Source: Octopus sinensis (taxonomy: Eukaryota). Taken from it: a stretch of DNA of 64,000 nt. The stretch is taken from the NCBI RefSeq assembly GCF_006345805.1, contig NC_043020.1:16058001-16122000 (forward strand), in the 5' to 3' direction. Positions within the stretch are counted from its first letter, which is position 1; every line of letters starts with the position of its first letter. The notes below the pieces were generated by a model. The model was not told the DNA's origin and ran no database searches. It was given only the letters and a program-made list of their open reading frames with translations. Shown here piece by piece: positions 6,272 through 61,039 of this stretch. Position numbers and translations under genes: made by a program.

Positions 6272-6652
6272 TTAATGAAAATGTTTCAGGAACTCTGAAA
6301 TTTGTACGAAAGTTAGTCTACCAGTTAGAAGAAAAAAACCCTGCGTGGCACCTTGGGCAAGTGTCTTCTACTTTAGCCTCGGGCCGACTAAAGCCTTGTG
6401 AGTGGATTTGGTAGACGGAAATATATATATATATATATATATATATATATATATATATATATATATATATGTATATAGGTATATACGATGGGCTTCTTTC
6501 AGTTTCCGTCTACCAAATCCATTCACAAGGCTTTAGTCGGCCCGAGGCTAAAGTAGAAGACACTTGCCCAAGGTGCCTCGCAGGGTTTTTTTCTTCTAAC
6601 TGGTAGACTAACTTTCGTACAAATTTCAGAGTTCCTGAAACATTTTCATTAA
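6272..6652. repeat. 150-bp inverted repeat around a (TA)n spacer
   Basis: Arms 6272-6421 and 6503-6652 are reverse complements with about 2 mismatches. Each arm is a SINE A fragment joined to about 70 bp of other sequence. Confidence 0.95.
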
Positions 6653-7220
6653 TAATTAGGGTTCAGCAAAGATTTGCTTTACCACATACCGAAGTTTAGA
6701 AATAGCAGCCAAAAAACGTTAGCTATTTCTTCTACTTTAAAAAGGGACTCCCAGAAAAACCAAAAATACTTGAAAACACACTCAAAACAGCCAGATCTGA
6801 CTCCTCACACCTATCCTACAATATCATTTTAATAATAAACAATGACATCATAATGCAGTGAGCTGGCAGAATTGTCAGCACAACAGGCAGAATGCTTAGC
6901 AGTATGATGCCTATCTTTATGTTCTGAGTTCAAATTCTGCCAAGGTTGACTTTGCCTTTCATCATTTTAGGGTCAATAGAATAAATTACCTGTTGAACAC
7001 TGAGGTTGATGTATTTGACTGAACCCCTCCCCCTGGAATCACTGGCTTTGTGCCAAAATTTGAAGCCAATAAACAATCACATCAGCAAAATCTTGAAGCT
7101 ACAAGATAATGCATGATTAATTGAAAACAATGTGAATAAATAAGCTTTACAATTCACAGAGTAATCTGAGTGTTAAGAGGTTAATTAAGTGATAATTACC
7201 TGTCTATTGAAAGTTAAACA

Positions 7221-7822
7221 ATCATCATCATCATCATTGTTTAACGTCCGCTTTCATGGGTTGGATGATTTCACTGAGGACTGGCAAACCAGATGGCTGC
7301 ACCAGACTCCAATCTGATCTGGCAGAGTTCTACAGCTGGATGCCCTTCCTAATGCCAACCACTCCGAGAGTGTAGTGGGTGCTTTTATGTGCCACCGGTA
7401 CGAGGGCCAGTCAGGCGGTACTGGTAACAACCACGCTCAAATGGTGCTTTTTATGTGCCACCTGCACAGGAGCCAGTCCAGCAGCACTGGCAACGACCTC
7501 GCTTGAATGTTTTTTCACATGCCATCAACACAAGTGCCAGTAAGGCAACATGGGTAACGATCACGCTCGAATGGTGTTTCTAATGTGCCATCAGCATGGA
7601 GGCCAGCTTGTAGCTGTGGCCACGATCTCACTCGTATGGCACTCTTAGCGCTCCACTAGCACAGATACCAGTCATCAAATTTGATTTCAATTTCGATTTC
7701 ACTTGTCTCAACAAGTCTTCACAGGCAGAATTTAGTGTCCAATGAAGGAAAGGCACGCATAAGTGGACTGGTTACACCCCTGGCATAGGCCACAAGGTTA
7801 TGGTCTCACTTGCGCTTGCCGA
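7221..7822 (-). mobile_element. RTE-type LINE long 3' fragment
   Basis: Same (GAT)n-tailed 3' end as the other copies, extending about 600 bp towards the ORF end. Confidence 0.8.
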
Positions 7823-8100
7823 GAACACAGAGCTCGTCTAATGAACTTCTATGCAGTTTCTATATAATCAATTTCACTCACAAATCTTGGGTCAATCTAC
7901 CTGAGAGGCCACATGAGGGTATCAAACCAGAGACATTGTTGTTTTGAAGTGAATTCCTTGAACAAGCTGCATGTGATAACCTGAAATTTTGTGGGTGGAG
8001 GTACTAGTCAATTACATCAACCCCAGTGCTCAACTGGCACTTATTTTATTGACCCTGAAGGGATGAAAGGCAAAGTTAACCTCAGCATGGAATCTGAATT

Positions 8101-8373
8101 AAGGTGCCGGTGGCACATATAAAAACATTAAAGCGAGGTTGTTGCCAGTACCACCTGACTGGCCCCCATGCCAGTTGCTTGTTAAAGGACCCACTACACG
8201 CTCGGAGTGGTTGGCGTTAGGAAGGGCATTCAGCAGTAGAAACTCTGCCAGATCAAGATTGGAGCCTGGTGCAGCCATCTGGTTCGCCAGCCCTCAGTCA
8301 AATCGTCTAACCCATGCTAGCATGGAAAGCGGACGTTAAACGATGATAATGATGATGATAATGATGATGATGA
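8101..8373 (+). mobile_element. RTE-type 3' end flanked by a 230-250 bp direct duplication
   Basis: Ends CCCATGCTAGCATGGAAAGCGGACGTTAAAC(GAT)n. Flanks 7869-8100 and 8374-8627 are direct repeats. Confidence 0.85.
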
Positions 8374-57285: not shown

Positions 57286-58113
57286 GGGATGAACTTGTAG
57301 CCTGGTCTTTGTTAGCCTCATGCAATGAACCGTAACCCTAACCCTAACCTCTTTGTACAGGTGAGTAGAACACTTTAAGCTCCATCCACCTGACTAAACT
57401 TGGCGGAATTTATATGATGCTAGAATTTGAACATAGGAAACATTAATGAGATTCTTCTTTGTTCTTCTGGAAAGTGATGTGGGTAATGGTAATGGTAAAG
57501 TCATGCTGTATACACAGAAAAAACCCCAAAAAACCCCAACTGGGTCCATTACTGTTAGTTTTCCTAACATCATGGTTCCTGATCACTCAGTTCCAATTTT
57601 AGTTTTTATCTCTTCTTCCTCATGCATTTAAATCCTCCATTAGGATGATTGTATTGCATCTGTGTATTAAGTACTATCTGATTGAATATTAGATGTGTTT
57701 AATCGGGTTATCAGATTACAGAGTTTTTGTAAAGGTACTCAGTAAAATAATGTAGCAACTCTCTCAAATATACACAGTCTGGAATACAAAGTGATATTAG
57801 CAGCTCACTGATGTCAGCTGGTGTTTCAGCCAGTTTAGAAAGAAAACTATTCCTTACATCAAAGCCAATGCCACCTCGGTGATGTCCAGTCTTGGGGTAA
57901 CTCTTTCAGAAGATGGTAAAGGAATAACTCTCACTCGCCATCCTCACTAAAAAAAAGATTCATTCTCCAAATAGTCCTGTCTCAATGACTGCAGCAAATA
58001 CAGGAATTTGGGGCTAAATTCGACAGTTTGCTTAAAAAGAAAAGCAAACACAATATCCCATCCAAAAATTCAAAAATTCAAAATAAAAACTAAAAAAAAA
58101 TATCAATTAGATA

Positions 58114-58565
58114 GGCATAGGAGTGGCTGTGTGGTAAGTAGCTTGCTAACAAACCACAGGATTCTGGGTTCAGTCCCACTGCATGCCACCTTGGGCAAGT
58201 GTCTTCTACTATAGCCTCGGGCCGACCAAAGCCTTGTGAGTGGATTTGGTAGACGGAAACTGAAAGAAACCTGTCGTATATATGTATATATATATATATG
58301 TATATATATATATGTATATATATATATATAATATATATATATATATATATATATATATATATATATATATATATGTGCATGTGTATATGTTTGTGTGTCT
58401 GTATTTGTCCTCCCAACTTCGCTCGACAACCGATGCTGGTGTGTTTACATCCCCATAGCTTAGCGGTTCGGCAAAAAAGAGACTGATAGAATAAGTACTA
58501 GGCTTACAAAGAATAAGTCCTGGGGTCAATTTGCTCGACTAAAGGCGGTGCTCCAGCATGGCCAC
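58114..58565 (+). mobile_element. tRNA-derived SINE family A
   Basis: Head, internal (TA)n and most of the 3' half. Confidence 0.9.
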
Positions 58566-59550
58566 TCATTTCCATAACCAATGGATTGCCAATATTCAGA
58601 CTAGTTCTCACTCGGTCTCGGCTACCATTGATTATTTCCCATCCCATGTTGCCAACACGTAGAGTTCCAACTAGGACCTTCCATCGCATTCAAACCAGCT
58701 CCCATTGTGAGATTCTCTGTTACGTCCAGACATCTTAGGGATCCAAGGTCGAAAGTTCACATGCAAAAGAAGACACCTGCACAATGAAATTTCATCTTGG
58801 AATGGTCAGTGCACATTTCCTTGTGTCTTCGCCATAAACGTGATACACACATACACATACACATAATCTAACACACACACACATACATATGCTTCCTTTC
58901 TCTTTCTCTCTCCCTCATACACACTCTGACACTCACCTATATACATACACATACATACACTCCAACATATTCACATACATACAATAACTCTTCGCTCATA
59001 CAATCTATTCCTCATACAAATACAGAAACTCATAAATTTAGACACAAATCTCTTACTTATACGCAGTGTTACTCTTCCTTTCTCATTCATGCATACACAA
59101 TCACACACACACACACACACACACACACATACACACACACATGCACACACACAGACACAGACACTAAGCAAAAATAATTTTCCTTTCAAAAGGCCAGATT
59201 AGATGAAGGTCATCTTTGACCAAGTGACTGCTGAAAGGTCAAGTAAAATAAAGGTCAATTTCAAGTCCATTTATCTCTCTTTCCTTTTATGTTTACACAG
59301 AGTTAAACAATTCTTGCTATTTCTGTCACCTCCCTACACGATCCACCACCACCTGCACCACCACCACCACCACCACCACCACCACCTGCCTCCTTTTATT
59401 GCTAGACATACTAGAAATAGCAGCCAAATCTCTCATAAATTATATTATACTCTGATCCAATCATCTCCTTACAAAACACCCTTTTTATTTAAACAAATTT
59501 CCTCCCACCAAAGAACACAAGATTTTAGGGAGGAAAACTGTTGTCTGCTC

Positions 59551-60281
59551 AACAAATTATAAGTAAGGGCAAAAGAAAAAATTTCTAATGCCAAAATATG
59601 CCGAAAATAGACACTACGTCAATAACCATGTAATTTATCACTACAAGCACATGTTTCGAAGAAAGCCAACAGAAATATCTAAAAAAATCCTGTTATTACC
59701 ATATCGAACCCGATTTCAGAGTTAGTTCGTAAGAACCTTCCTTTCATCAGTGATAAATGTGGCAAAGAAATATGTGAAATACTTACTTATACCCACGGAA
59801 GAAGTGAACACTAAGTCATGAGCACAATTAAGTACCCCAAATATATCCAAAATAGAAACTCTCTAGCACACCTCGGGACATGTGTGATTCGAACTGAAAA
59901 ACTCCCGTAAAGTGAGAGAGTCCGGAAGTGAACACTATTTAAATTAACATCTTATATAGGATAAAATTTTTCGAAAAAAATTCTAACAATGGCCAGCATA
60001 TTAAAAAATAGCTTTAAAGGTTAAATTTATAAACAATTTATAAGTAAGAAAAAAAATTCTAATGCCAAAATATGCCAAAAATAGACACAGGGAAGGTTCT
60101 TATGAACTAACTCTGATATCGGATCTGATATGGTAATAACGAGATGTTTTTAGAAATTTCTGTTGGCTTTCTTCAAAACACGTGCTTGTAGTGATAAATT
60201 ACATGGTTATTGACGTAGTGTCTATTTTCGGCATATTTTGGCATTAGAAATTTTTTCTTTTGCCCTTACTTATAAATTGTT
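59551..60281 (-). mobile_element. 481-bp hammerhead-containing monomer plus 57-bp redundancy plus inverted partial copy
   Basis: 59551-59613 repeats at 60032-60088. 60091-60281 is the reverse complement of 59551-59741. A further diverged inverted piece lies at about 60760-60895. Confidence 0.85.
59696..59756 (-). ncRNA. Type I hammerhead ribozyme (canonical CUGAUGA/GAAA core, AUA site)
   Basis: uuauca CUGAUGA aagg aa gguuc uuac gaacu aa cucu GAAA ucg gguu cga UA ugguaa. Confidence 0.78.
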
Positions 60282-61039
60282 AGGCAAGTGTAAACAAATC
60301 AAAATTGCTTACGTGGCTGATGACAGTACCACCTGATTGGCACTCATGCCAGTGGAACATTAAAAGCACATCCAAGCATGATTGTTGCCAGGGCCACGGA
60401 TTGGCTCCTATGCAGGTATCATGTAGAAACACCTTTTGAGTGTGGTCATTGCCAGAACCATCTGACTGGCCTTCATGCTGGTGGCACATAAAAGCACCCA
60501 CTATACCCTCGGAATGGTTGGTGTTAGAAAGGGCATACAGCTGTAGAAACTTTGCCAGATCAGATTGAGCCTGGTATAGCCTCTGGCTCACCAGTCCTCA
60601 GTCAAACTGTCCAACCCATGCCTGCATGGAAAGCGGACGTTAAACGATGATGATGATGATGATGATGATATATAAACAATTATAACTTGTTAGCTTACAT
60701 TCCTTGTTTCAACACACTGTGTATTTATAGAGAAATATTGTATGTTGTTAGACGATATAAAGTCTATTTTTTCAGCATATTGGCATAGAAGTTTTTTCTT
60801 TTGTTCTTAGTTATAATTGTTTATAATTTTCACCTTAAAAGGTATTATAATATGCTGGCCACTGACAAAATGTTTTGGAAAAAACTTTAATCCTTACATT
60901 AGAAGTACATTTATATGCACACACACACACACACACACATACACAGATGTTTACATACAAATATGCATATATATATATATAAAGAGAGAGAGACACACAC
61001 AGACAGACAACCAGGCAGGCTGGCAGGTAGGTAGGGAGG

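What the first reader, a model, noticed from the sequence alone, without database searches (positions are those of the whole stretch)
6651..60895. Candidate retrozyme-like system: microsatellite-targeted non-coding elements with hammerhead ribozymes and monomer-plus-redundancy structure
Seen: at least six unrelated or distantly related short elements carry type I hammerheads (23236, 31870, 37914, 38864, 42540, 59696). Most abut (TA)n or (AAT)n, and several have an inverted partial copy at one end. Two are non-coding monomers of 545 and 481 bp followed by an 86 or 57 bp repeat of their own start. Established: Penelope-like elements (PLEs) carry hammerheads in pseudo-LTRs and give tandem and inverted ends, and metazoan non-LTR retrozymes are hammerhead-bearing repeats that yield small circular RNAs. 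Inference: these are non-autonomous elements copied by a PLE reverse transcriptase running slightly more than once around a circular RNA. I know of no detailed description of this in octopus but cannot check the literature.
Basis: partly seen in the sequence, partly recalled or inferred. Interest (0 to 1): 0.85.

Follow-up and report, generated by a model that had tools for sequence, protein, structure and literature searches.

The report
Penelope-copied hammerhead repeats in TA microsatellites
Five families of 480-560-base non-coding repeats with predicted self-cutting hammerhead RNAs form head-to-tail arrays, mostly in TA microsatellites, and were likely copied from RNA circles by Penelope-type retrotransposons (a known kind, retrozymes), while three of the six reported hammerheads are ordinary ends of protein-coding Penelope elements.

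Summary
Observation largely confirmed; interpretation right for three of six hammerheads. Those at 38867 (A), 23318 (B) and 59756 (E) lie in non-coding tandem units of 545, ~534 and ~478 bp. Two more such families (G, and H with a missed hammerhead at 31450) are in the window. The class is published (non-LTR retrozymes; PLE origin in a 2026 preprint). My searches found no cephalopod description. New here: arms reach at least 16.6 units. Two-armed insertions pair one short with one ~100-nt-longer 3' end (A 26 of 26). New substitutions are fixed across both arms (23 vs 0.05 shuffled). G arms stop at the predicted cut (6 of 20), A arms never (0 stops, 228 crossings). This favours rolling reverse transcription of one monomer circle primed at two sites. 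Four part-shared variants point to some later local duplication. No RNA evidence; the driving element was not identified. An earlier scan note (e1-7810660) describes a hammerhead-less analogue in another genome.

The parts
38479..39112 (+). Family A retrozyme, 1.16 units of a 545-bp unit; short 3' end on (TA)n; 5' end joined to an older family C copy through a ~5-nt microhomology
38867..38918 (+). Family A type I hammerhead, U4C core, palindromic stem III, predicted cut after 38914
   Evidence: U4C in 223 of the 223 units with a base at that position
23078..23460 (-). Family B retrozyme, 0.7 of a ~534-bp unit; short 3' end on (TA)n
23237..23318 (-). Family B canonical type I hammerhead, long stem II, predicted cut after 23243
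   Evidence: z -3.9; Rfam Hammerhead_1, 30 bits
59551..60281 (.). Family E retrozyme (~478-bp unit), two arms with an inversion at 60090/60091; not on (TA)n; both ends short
59696..59756 (-). Family E canonical hammerhead, predicted cut after 59702
60762..60916 (+). Older family E fragment with the long end
31258..31724 (+).
31444..31507 (+). Family H canonical hammerhead with a stem III that can form in a monomer, predicted cut after 31501
35950..36283 (.). Family G retrozyme (~557-bp unit), two short arms, long end left and short end right; this copy stops before the hammerhead (U3-A8 core in other copies)
6651..6743 (-). Old fragment related to the A/G 3' module, no hammerhead in the window
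31816..32957 (-). Family D: 5'-truncated 3' pLTR of an intact Neptune-type PLE, with an inverted piece; U3-A8 hammerhead-like motif at about 31870-31918, weak stem I
37823..38022 (-). Family C: 3' end of an RT/GIY-YIG PLE lineage; minimal hammerhead at 37914-37949 with an A6U core (further copies at 38369-38483 and about 54922-55110)
42275..42662 (.). Family F: two-armed 3' end of a GIY-YIG PLE in (AAT)n, short end left, ~36-nt longer end right; minimal U3-A8 hammerhead at 42540-42582 (+)

Best explanation
Families A, B, E, G and H are non-coding 480-560-bp tandem repeats with predicted hammerhead ribozymes (non-LTR retrozymes) that are likely copied into (TA)n tracts by a Penelope-like reverse transcriptase/GIY-YIG protein reading a monomeric RNA circle, whereas D, C and F are truncated ends of protein-coding Penelope-like elements. 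Steps: (1, inferred) a tandem array is transcribed, the hammerheads cut it to unit length and the unit is ligated to a circle. (2, inferred) A Neptune-type protein cuts both strands in a TA tract and primes cDNA from both DNA ends at two internal RNA sites about 100 nt apart. (3, shown as anatomy) The insertion has two outward-facing 3' ends, one short and one long. (4, inferred) Each RT runs round the circle until it falls off, giving arms of 0.1 to at least 16.6 units. (5, shown) The arms meet at random 5' points with 0-5 nt of microhomology, or one arm is lost. (6, inferred) A few long arrays later undergo local block duplication or conversion.
For: Non-coding units: longest stop-free frames are 92 aa without Met (A), 90 (B), 130 (G, 51 from Met) and 59 (E). 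Past the long end the sequence runs on into the same unit, and E loci share nothing beyond the unit. Fixed 3' ends, random 5' ends: A 3' ends at unit position ~89 or ~186 in 63 of 64 arms, with TA-rich flanks in 51 of 63. One short plus one long end: A 26 of 26 scorable junctions (27 found, 1 cut by the fetch edge; p 1.5e-8 if independent); B 10 of 10 (13 found; 9 independent); H 11 of 12 (14 found); G 14 of 14 (15 found; 10 after removing duplicates); E 5 of 6 (15 found, 9 unscorable). This matches the two RT start sites and tail shown in vitro for a Poseidon PLE (PMC11167929). Junction overlaps of 0-5 nt in 22 of 27 A junctions. Single-template signal: of 33 variants seen at least twice in an A array, 27 are in every unit and 2 more nearly so, across both arms where both cover the site; 23 fixed variant-array pairs against 0.05 (max 3) in 300 label shuffles. 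The variants nest like a tree. Singletons are as rare in long as in short A arrays (42/84539 vs 17/30611 bp), so length does not track age. The predicted cut is crossed 228 times in A with no scar and no 5' end within 3 nt, and 53 times in B (nearest 5' end 4-5 nt away), although B's core is canonical. In G, 6 of 20 arms stop 0-3 nt after the predicted cut (counted by eye; p 1e-4 to 2e-6 under assumed hazards), a footprint of cleavage in vivo. All hammerhead stems pair in five different sequences. Circular folds have z -5.3 (A) and -6.8 (B) against 30 shuffles. Young intact TA-targeting Neptune-type elements coexist: 6 of 60 listed matches are full-length, stop-free and at least 99% identical.
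Against: Four A variants sit in exactly 2 non-adjacent units of the longest arrays and are not periodic, and B has 3 part-shared against 5 fixed variants with a weak shuffle test (3 vs max 3). This suggests local duplication or mosaic templates. B singletons are denser in long arrays (41/19919 vs 5/7037 bp). Homogeneous arrays also follow from local expansion of a short insert, and assembly polishing can hide mosaics. A's core carries U4C, said to lower activity strongly in vitro (PMC3088659), so uncut linear multimers are possible. For the Poseidon PLE the unprocessed RNA was the main substrate and hammerhead mutants still inserted. 8 of 9 Xenopus retrozyme dimers did not cleave in vitro. The end modules of A, B and G show no similarity to those of D, D2 or C (all p > 0.08; E vs D p 0.047 uncorrected), so the driver is unidentified. 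The window's E copy has two short ends and no TA flank. Loci are top BLAST hits, biased to arrays for A.
Confidence: 0.62

Rival explanations
1. Same elements and same PLE machinery, but the template is a long, mostly uncut linear read-through transcript of a donor array; the hammerhead cuts only now and then, and circles are incidental.
For: U4C core in A. [quoted passage not shown] G shows that linear cleaved RNA can serve as template. Part-shared variants in B.
Against: Derived variants are fixed in all units rather than mosaic, which needs a one-unit bottleneck. No A arm runs into a donor's inversion junction or flank; no two of the 27 A junctions are alike. Canonical B and H hammerheads are crossed about 53 and about 39 times with at most 1-2 nearby stops.
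Confidence: 0.18
2. PLE machinery inserts 1-2 units, and the long arrays grow afterwards in DNA by unequal exchange, as satellite DNA does (the route discussed in bioRxiv 10.64898/2026.07.22.740005).
For: It predicts array-wide fixed variants too. Four non-adjacent doubletons occur in the longest A arrays. B singleton density is higher in long arrays.
Against: The A variant spectrum is star-like (59 singletons, 4 doubletons, none in between and fixed). Long A arrays are no more diverged than short ones. The older families E, G and H (87-96% identity) show arms of at most 1.55, 1.13 and 2.02 units among top hits, while A (0.2% divergence) has a median of 3.
Confidence: 0.15
3. All the short elements, including A/B/E/G/H, are just pLTR fragments of autonomous PLEs not yet seen at full length.
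For: True for D, F and the C lineage. PLE coding fragments lie within the fetched flanks of 4 of 20 B, 2 of 30 H, 2 of 25 G, 1 of 30 E and 1 of 36 A loci; L354 joins a G arm to endonuclease-coding sequence in the same orientation.
Against: In A, B, E, G and H the sequence past the long end is the start of the same unit, not an ORF as in D and D2. The families nest in each other's TA tracts, which explains the neighbours.
Confidence: 0.05

Closest known systems
Animal non-LTR retrozymes (Cervera & de la Pena 2020, PMC7229834; Li, Clavereau & Pollet 2026, bioRxiv 10.64898/2026.07.22.740005)
   Same: Non-coding, low-GC (32-33% for A and B) tandem units each with a type I hammerhead, dispersed as monomers to multimers, highly self-paired as predicted circles, coexisting with PLEs; circRNA templating by PLE RT is already proposed there.
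   Different: Units of 480-560 bp are longer than the 150-450 bp of the 2020 paper (within the 51-972 bp of the preprint). In the parts read, neither paper describes (TA)n targeting, two-armed inverted insertions, a two-end rule or array-fixed variants; no cephalopod was studied; no pLTR homology to an autonomous partner was found here.
Poseidon PLE from Anolis, PAc (Frangieh et al. 2024, PMC11167929)
   Same: AT-rich target, both strands cut and extended, two internal RT start sites that leave a 'tail' on some ends.
   Different: The tail is ~90-120 nt in the non-coding families against 30-40 nt (about 36 nt in D, D2 and F here). The paper saw no strand difference in start site, whereas here the two ends of one insertion almost always use different sites.
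Neptune/Nematis-type EN+ PLEs and their pLTR hammerheads (Cervera & de la Pena 2014, PMC4209133; Craig et al. 2021, PMC8557442)
   Same: [quoted passage not shown]
   Different: The C lineage carries A6U in 51 of 51 motif copies; I did not find this variant in the text read or in search.
Non-autonomous Chlamys elements such as MRC1 (PMC8557442)
   Same: Non-autonomous PLE derivatives with multicopy head-to-tail insertions.
   Different: The Naiad/Chlamys group lacks canonical hammerheads, and its non-autonomous members resemble their autonomous partners at the 3' end.

Membership tests
Animal non-LTR retrozymes (A, B, E, G, H) | Type I hammerhead in each repeat unit | tested here: met
   A 223-229 units (U4C), B 54, E 36 and H 39 motif rows; G in the copies long enough. 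Rfam supports only B.
Animal non-LTR retrozymes (A, B, E, G, H) | At least two consecutive hammerhead-bearing units (the preprint's 'active' criterion) | tested here: met
   A 36 of 36 loci (biased sample), B 10 of 19; H in L372, L377, L383; E in L039 has two cut sites one unit apart. Not seen for G in 25 loci.
Animal non-LTR retrozymes (A, B, E, G, H) | No protein coding; no LTR structure; GC below 50% | tested here: met
   ORF scan of A, B, E and G and GC of A and B; H checked only by tblastn; PBS/PPT not searched.
Animal non-LTR retrozymes (A, B, E, G, H) | Self-cleavage of the RNA | tested here: inconclusive
   Indirect only: 6 of 20 G arms stop at the predicted cut; none in A; no assay possible.
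Animal non-LTR retrozymes (A, B, E, G, H) | Expression as unit-length circular RNA | not testable with these tools
   No run on record as RNA was listed, and contigs cannot show circles.
Animal non-LTR retrozymes (A, B, E, G, H) | Homology to the pLTR of an autonomous PLE (shown for 24 of 57 Xenopus families) | tested here: not met
   No match of A, B or G in 55 PLE loci, where E matched only as separate insertions, nor in 20 longer loci apart from one 46-bp G fragment; module alignments were not significant. Only four PLE lineages were compared, so this is not exhaustive.
EN+ Penelope-like element, Neptune/Nematis type (D) | RT plus C-terminal GIY-YIG in one ORF | tested here: met
   781 aa; Pfam RVT_1 E 1e-6 (28.9 bits, just under the cut-off) and GIY-YIG E 3e-6; D pLTR follows the ORF in 27 of 30 loci.
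EN+ Penelope-like element, Neptune/Nematis type (D, D2, C lineage) | CX2-5CxxC linker before the endonuclease | tested here: met
   Found in 3 of 3 proteins; no tree was built, so Neptune versus Nematis is not resolved.
EN+ Penelope-like element (D, D2, C lineage) | pLTR partial tandem with hammerhead and 30-40 bp tail on some ends | tested here: met
   tail seen for D and D2, not for the C lineage in the 5 loci printed.
EN+ Penelope-like element (C subfamily of the window, F) | Intact ORF linked to this exact subfamily | tested here: inconclusive
   C: RT upstream in 1 of 30 loci; intact 949-1009-aa frames carry a 72-78% identical end in 5 of 5. F: broken RT/EN upstream in 4 of 30, GIY-YIG 22.7 bits.

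The most novel reading that the evidence does not exclude
One monomeric ribozyme circle is primed by a Penelope RT dimer from both ends of a double-strand cut in (TA)n, at two fixed sites about 100 nt apart. Both enzymes roll round the same circle up to 17 or more times, so each insertion is a clonal record of one RNA molecule. The obligate short/long pairing of ends would then be the general explanation of the PLE tail and inversion. The A6U core of the C lineage may be an active natural hammerhead variant.
Probability: 0.4. Interest if true: 0.72.

Novelty: new member of a known kind. Interest (0 to 1): 0.5.

Why it matters
How PLEs make their tandem and inverted insertions, and whether animal retrozyme arrays come from circular RNA or from later DNA amplification, are both open in the papers read. 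Family A is very young (0.2% divergence) and short, so it keeps the insertion anatomy clean. It gives a near-absolute rule (one short and one long end), a one-template signature and, in family G, a cleavage footprint. Together with intact Neptune-type ORFs from the same genome this makes rolling-circle, two-site priming testable in the published in vitro PLE assay. The kind of element itself is known, and half of the listed hammerheads are ordinary PLE ends.

Tried and rejected
Rfam on the whole window gave no hammerhead, only microsatellite-driven miRNA noise and a U6 copy; narrow scans were negative for A, E, H and D. The first strict descriptors missed the long stem II and variant cores. 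Short-window folds of the hammerheads were not better than shuffles except B, which is uninformative for dimer-type motifs. RNA evidence: no RNA holder listed. Contigs of four runs of guessed type cover parts of A but cannot show expression or circles; neither result is used as evidence. Driver search: a short motif shared by the long ends of G, B and D2 was not significant in alignment; L354 (G arm next to endonuclease sequence) is equally explained by target deletion. Multimeric-circle periodicity for the doubleton variants was rejected because they are not periodic. No pile-up of 5' ends at the cut was seen in A, B, E or H. The L137 5.9-kb repeat includes flank and is probably a local duplication, so L330, L317 and L320 were used for PLE ends. 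An unbiased sample of short A copies could not be examined because no DNA came back. Rows dropped: L254 (duplicate of L253); G duplicates L352, L358 and one L349 repeat, two arms ending before the cut, and three loci missed by the marker (one of which, L357, passes the cut, making 6 of 21). Literature searches for a cephalopod description or this anatomy found none; the library lacks most subscription papers, and figures and the preprint's supplements were not seen. Scan look-ups by place and by sequence were empty.

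
Full report
Observation. All six cited sites hold a type I hammerhead-like motif. A descriptor widened after inspection finds five of them plus a sixth at 31450, against 0.05 hits per shuffled window (40 shuffles). The 31870 motif has a weak stem I and fails it. 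Rfam supports only the 23237-23318 motif (30 bits) and none in the whole-window or the other three narrow scans. Five of six elements abut (TA)n or (AAT)n; the 59551-60281 element does not. The 545 and 481 periods and the inverted ends are real.

Three sites are ordinary PLE ends. D (31816-32957) is the 3' pLTR of an element with a 781-aa frame carrying RVT_1 and GIY-YIG. Six of 60 listed matches are full-length, stop-free and at least 99% identical, and the D end follows the frame in 27 of 30 loci. F (42275-42662) has RT or endonuclease sequence upstream in 4 of 30 loci and a GIY-YIG match in another. C (37823-38022) has RT upstream in 1 of 30 loci, and a 72-78% identical end follows 949-1009-aa RT frames in 5 of 5 loci. 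D, a second family D2 (67% identical protein) and the C lineage have the CX3CxxC linker that PMC8557442 gives for Neptune and Nematis (passages). D and F use the U3-A8 core described in PMC4209133 (parts 1-2 of 4). C has U at position 6 in 51 of 51 motif copies retrieved by stem II alone, while position 7 varies. I did not find A6U in search or in the passages and section 8 of PMC3088659 (its figure was not visible). Its activity is unknown.

Five families are non-coding tandem units: A 545 bp, B ~534, E ~478, G ~557 and H ~491. First-look candidates number 765 to 3582 per query, of which 37-40 were scored, so all counts come from top hits. A and B are young (0.2% and 0.4% substitutions); E, G and H are 87-96% identical. 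The longest frames in A, B, E and G are short; H was checked only by tblastn. Past the long end the sequence continues into the same unit, whereas in D and D2 it continues into an ORF. Their hammerheads pair in every stem with different sequences and share a long stem II with a 3x3 internal loop (read by eye). A carries U4C in all units; related contigs in other runs show the canonical base, so U4C looks derived. The end modules of A, G and B are homologous (z 12.4, 4.1, 3.8) but not similar to those of D, D2 or C.

Anatomy of insertion. In 36 ten-kb A loci, 63 of 64 arms end at unit position ~89 or ~186, with TA-rich flanks in 51 of 63. The 5' ends are spread over the unit. Arms reach at least 16.6 units (median 3). 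The window's 1.16-unit copy is one such truncation. Two-armed insertions pair one short with one long end: A 26 of 26 scorable, B 10 of 10 (9 independent), H 11 of 12, G 14 of 14 (10 independent), E 5 of 6, the exception being the window's own E copy. Unscorable pairs were 1, 3, 2, 1 and 9. Junctions overlap by 0-5 nt in 22 of 27 A cases. The tail is ~90-120 nt in these families and ~36 nt in D, D2 and F. PMC11167929 (parts 1-2 of 4) shows that the tail reflects two internal RT start sites and that both target strands are cut and extended. PMC8557442 notes a tail often on one end only. The near-absolute pairing measured here suggests (inference) that the two DNA ends are primed at the two sites of one RNA.

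Template. Of 33 substitutions seen at least twice within an A array, 27 are in every unit and two more nearly so, across both arms where covered; the permutation gives 23 against 0.05. The variants nest, so each new change passed through a one-unit bottleneck. The predicted cut is crossed 228 times in A without scar or stop and 53 times in B. In G, 6 of 20 arms stop 0-3 nt after the cut (p 1e-4 to 2e-6 under assumed hazards), which suggests that this ribozyme cuts in vivo and that cleaved linear RNA is also used. Circular folds of A and B are far more stable than shuffles (z -5.3, -6.8). Against a pure circle model: four A variants occur in two non-adjacent units of the longest arrays; B has 3 part-shared against 5 fixed variants and denser singletons in long arrays; local expansion also gives homogeneous arrays; polishing may hide mosaics; U4C may leave transcripts uncut; and PAc inserts from unprocessed RNA. 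For it: 59 singletons to 4 doubletons, no rise of divergence with A array length, and short arms in the older families. I put the circle at 0.62, uncut linear multimers at 0.18, later DNA amplification at 0.15 and hidden autonomous parents at 0.05.

Comparison and novelty. PMC7229834 (passages and parts 2-3 of 6) defines animal non-LTR retrozymes, shows circles in coral, mussel and axolotl, and names PLEs as likely drivers. bioRxiv 10.64898/2026.07.22.740005 (parts 1-3 of 5; supplements not seen) argues PLE origin from 35 genomes and discusses local amplification; only 1 of 9 dimers cleaved. PMC4209133 already proposes more-than-unit reverse transcription of circles. A, B, E, G and H meet the sequence criteria. 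Cleavage and circles are untested, and pLTR homology to a partner was not found among four lineages. Eight searches gave no cephalopod description, within a library that lacks most subscription papers. One earlier scan note (e1-7810660) reports a hammerhead-less, TA-targeted analogue in another genome; I did not check it. Verdict: new members of a known kind, mixed with ordinary PLE ends, with unusually clean genomic evidence on the insertion mechanism. Interest 0.5.

Noticed in passing
window 20266-20372 (+): U6 snRNA copy, Rfam 82.1 bits, diverged 5' stem; gene or retrocopy.
   Followed up: no
window 23461-23985: A ~525-bp dispersed repeat, 91-93% identical at about 40 other loci, with ends that look like those of a Tc1/mariner-type MITE (label recalled); the young B copy is joined to its end.
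   Followed up: partly
window 37939-37949 and loci L293, L306, L322-L326: A6U hammerhead core fixed across a PLE lineage spanning 72-95% identity while position 7 varies.
   Followed up: partly
L121, L135, L128 (3' flanks of D copies): Families D, A and B insert tail-to-tail in each other's TA tracts; in the window H and D face each other across (TA)n at 31729-31816.
   Followed up: partly
L137:3673-5109 (+); also L317:2604-3914: D and D2 have a second long frame (479 and 437 aa stop to stop) upstream of the RT frame, starting just after the long end; no convincing Pfam match. PLEs are usually described with one ORF; it may be an N-terminal exon or a frameshifted part.
   Followed up: no
L354:317-1696: A G arm is joined in the same orientation to Neptune-type RT/endonuclease sequence: template switch or target deletion.
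   Followed up: partly
L316, L323, L336, L339, L341: Further hammerhead motifs of other families appear in flanks, so the genome holds more families than the eight described.
   Followed up: no
window 6269-6655: Two copies of a common dispersed repeat inverted around (TA)n, giving a long palindrome and spurious miRNA hits.
   Followed up: no
window 42661-44619: ~1-kb tandem duplication at 95.6% starting at the (AAT)n right of the F element.
   Followed up: no
window 32339-32549: 93-bp tandem repeat inside the D pLTR, variable among copies.
   Followed up: no
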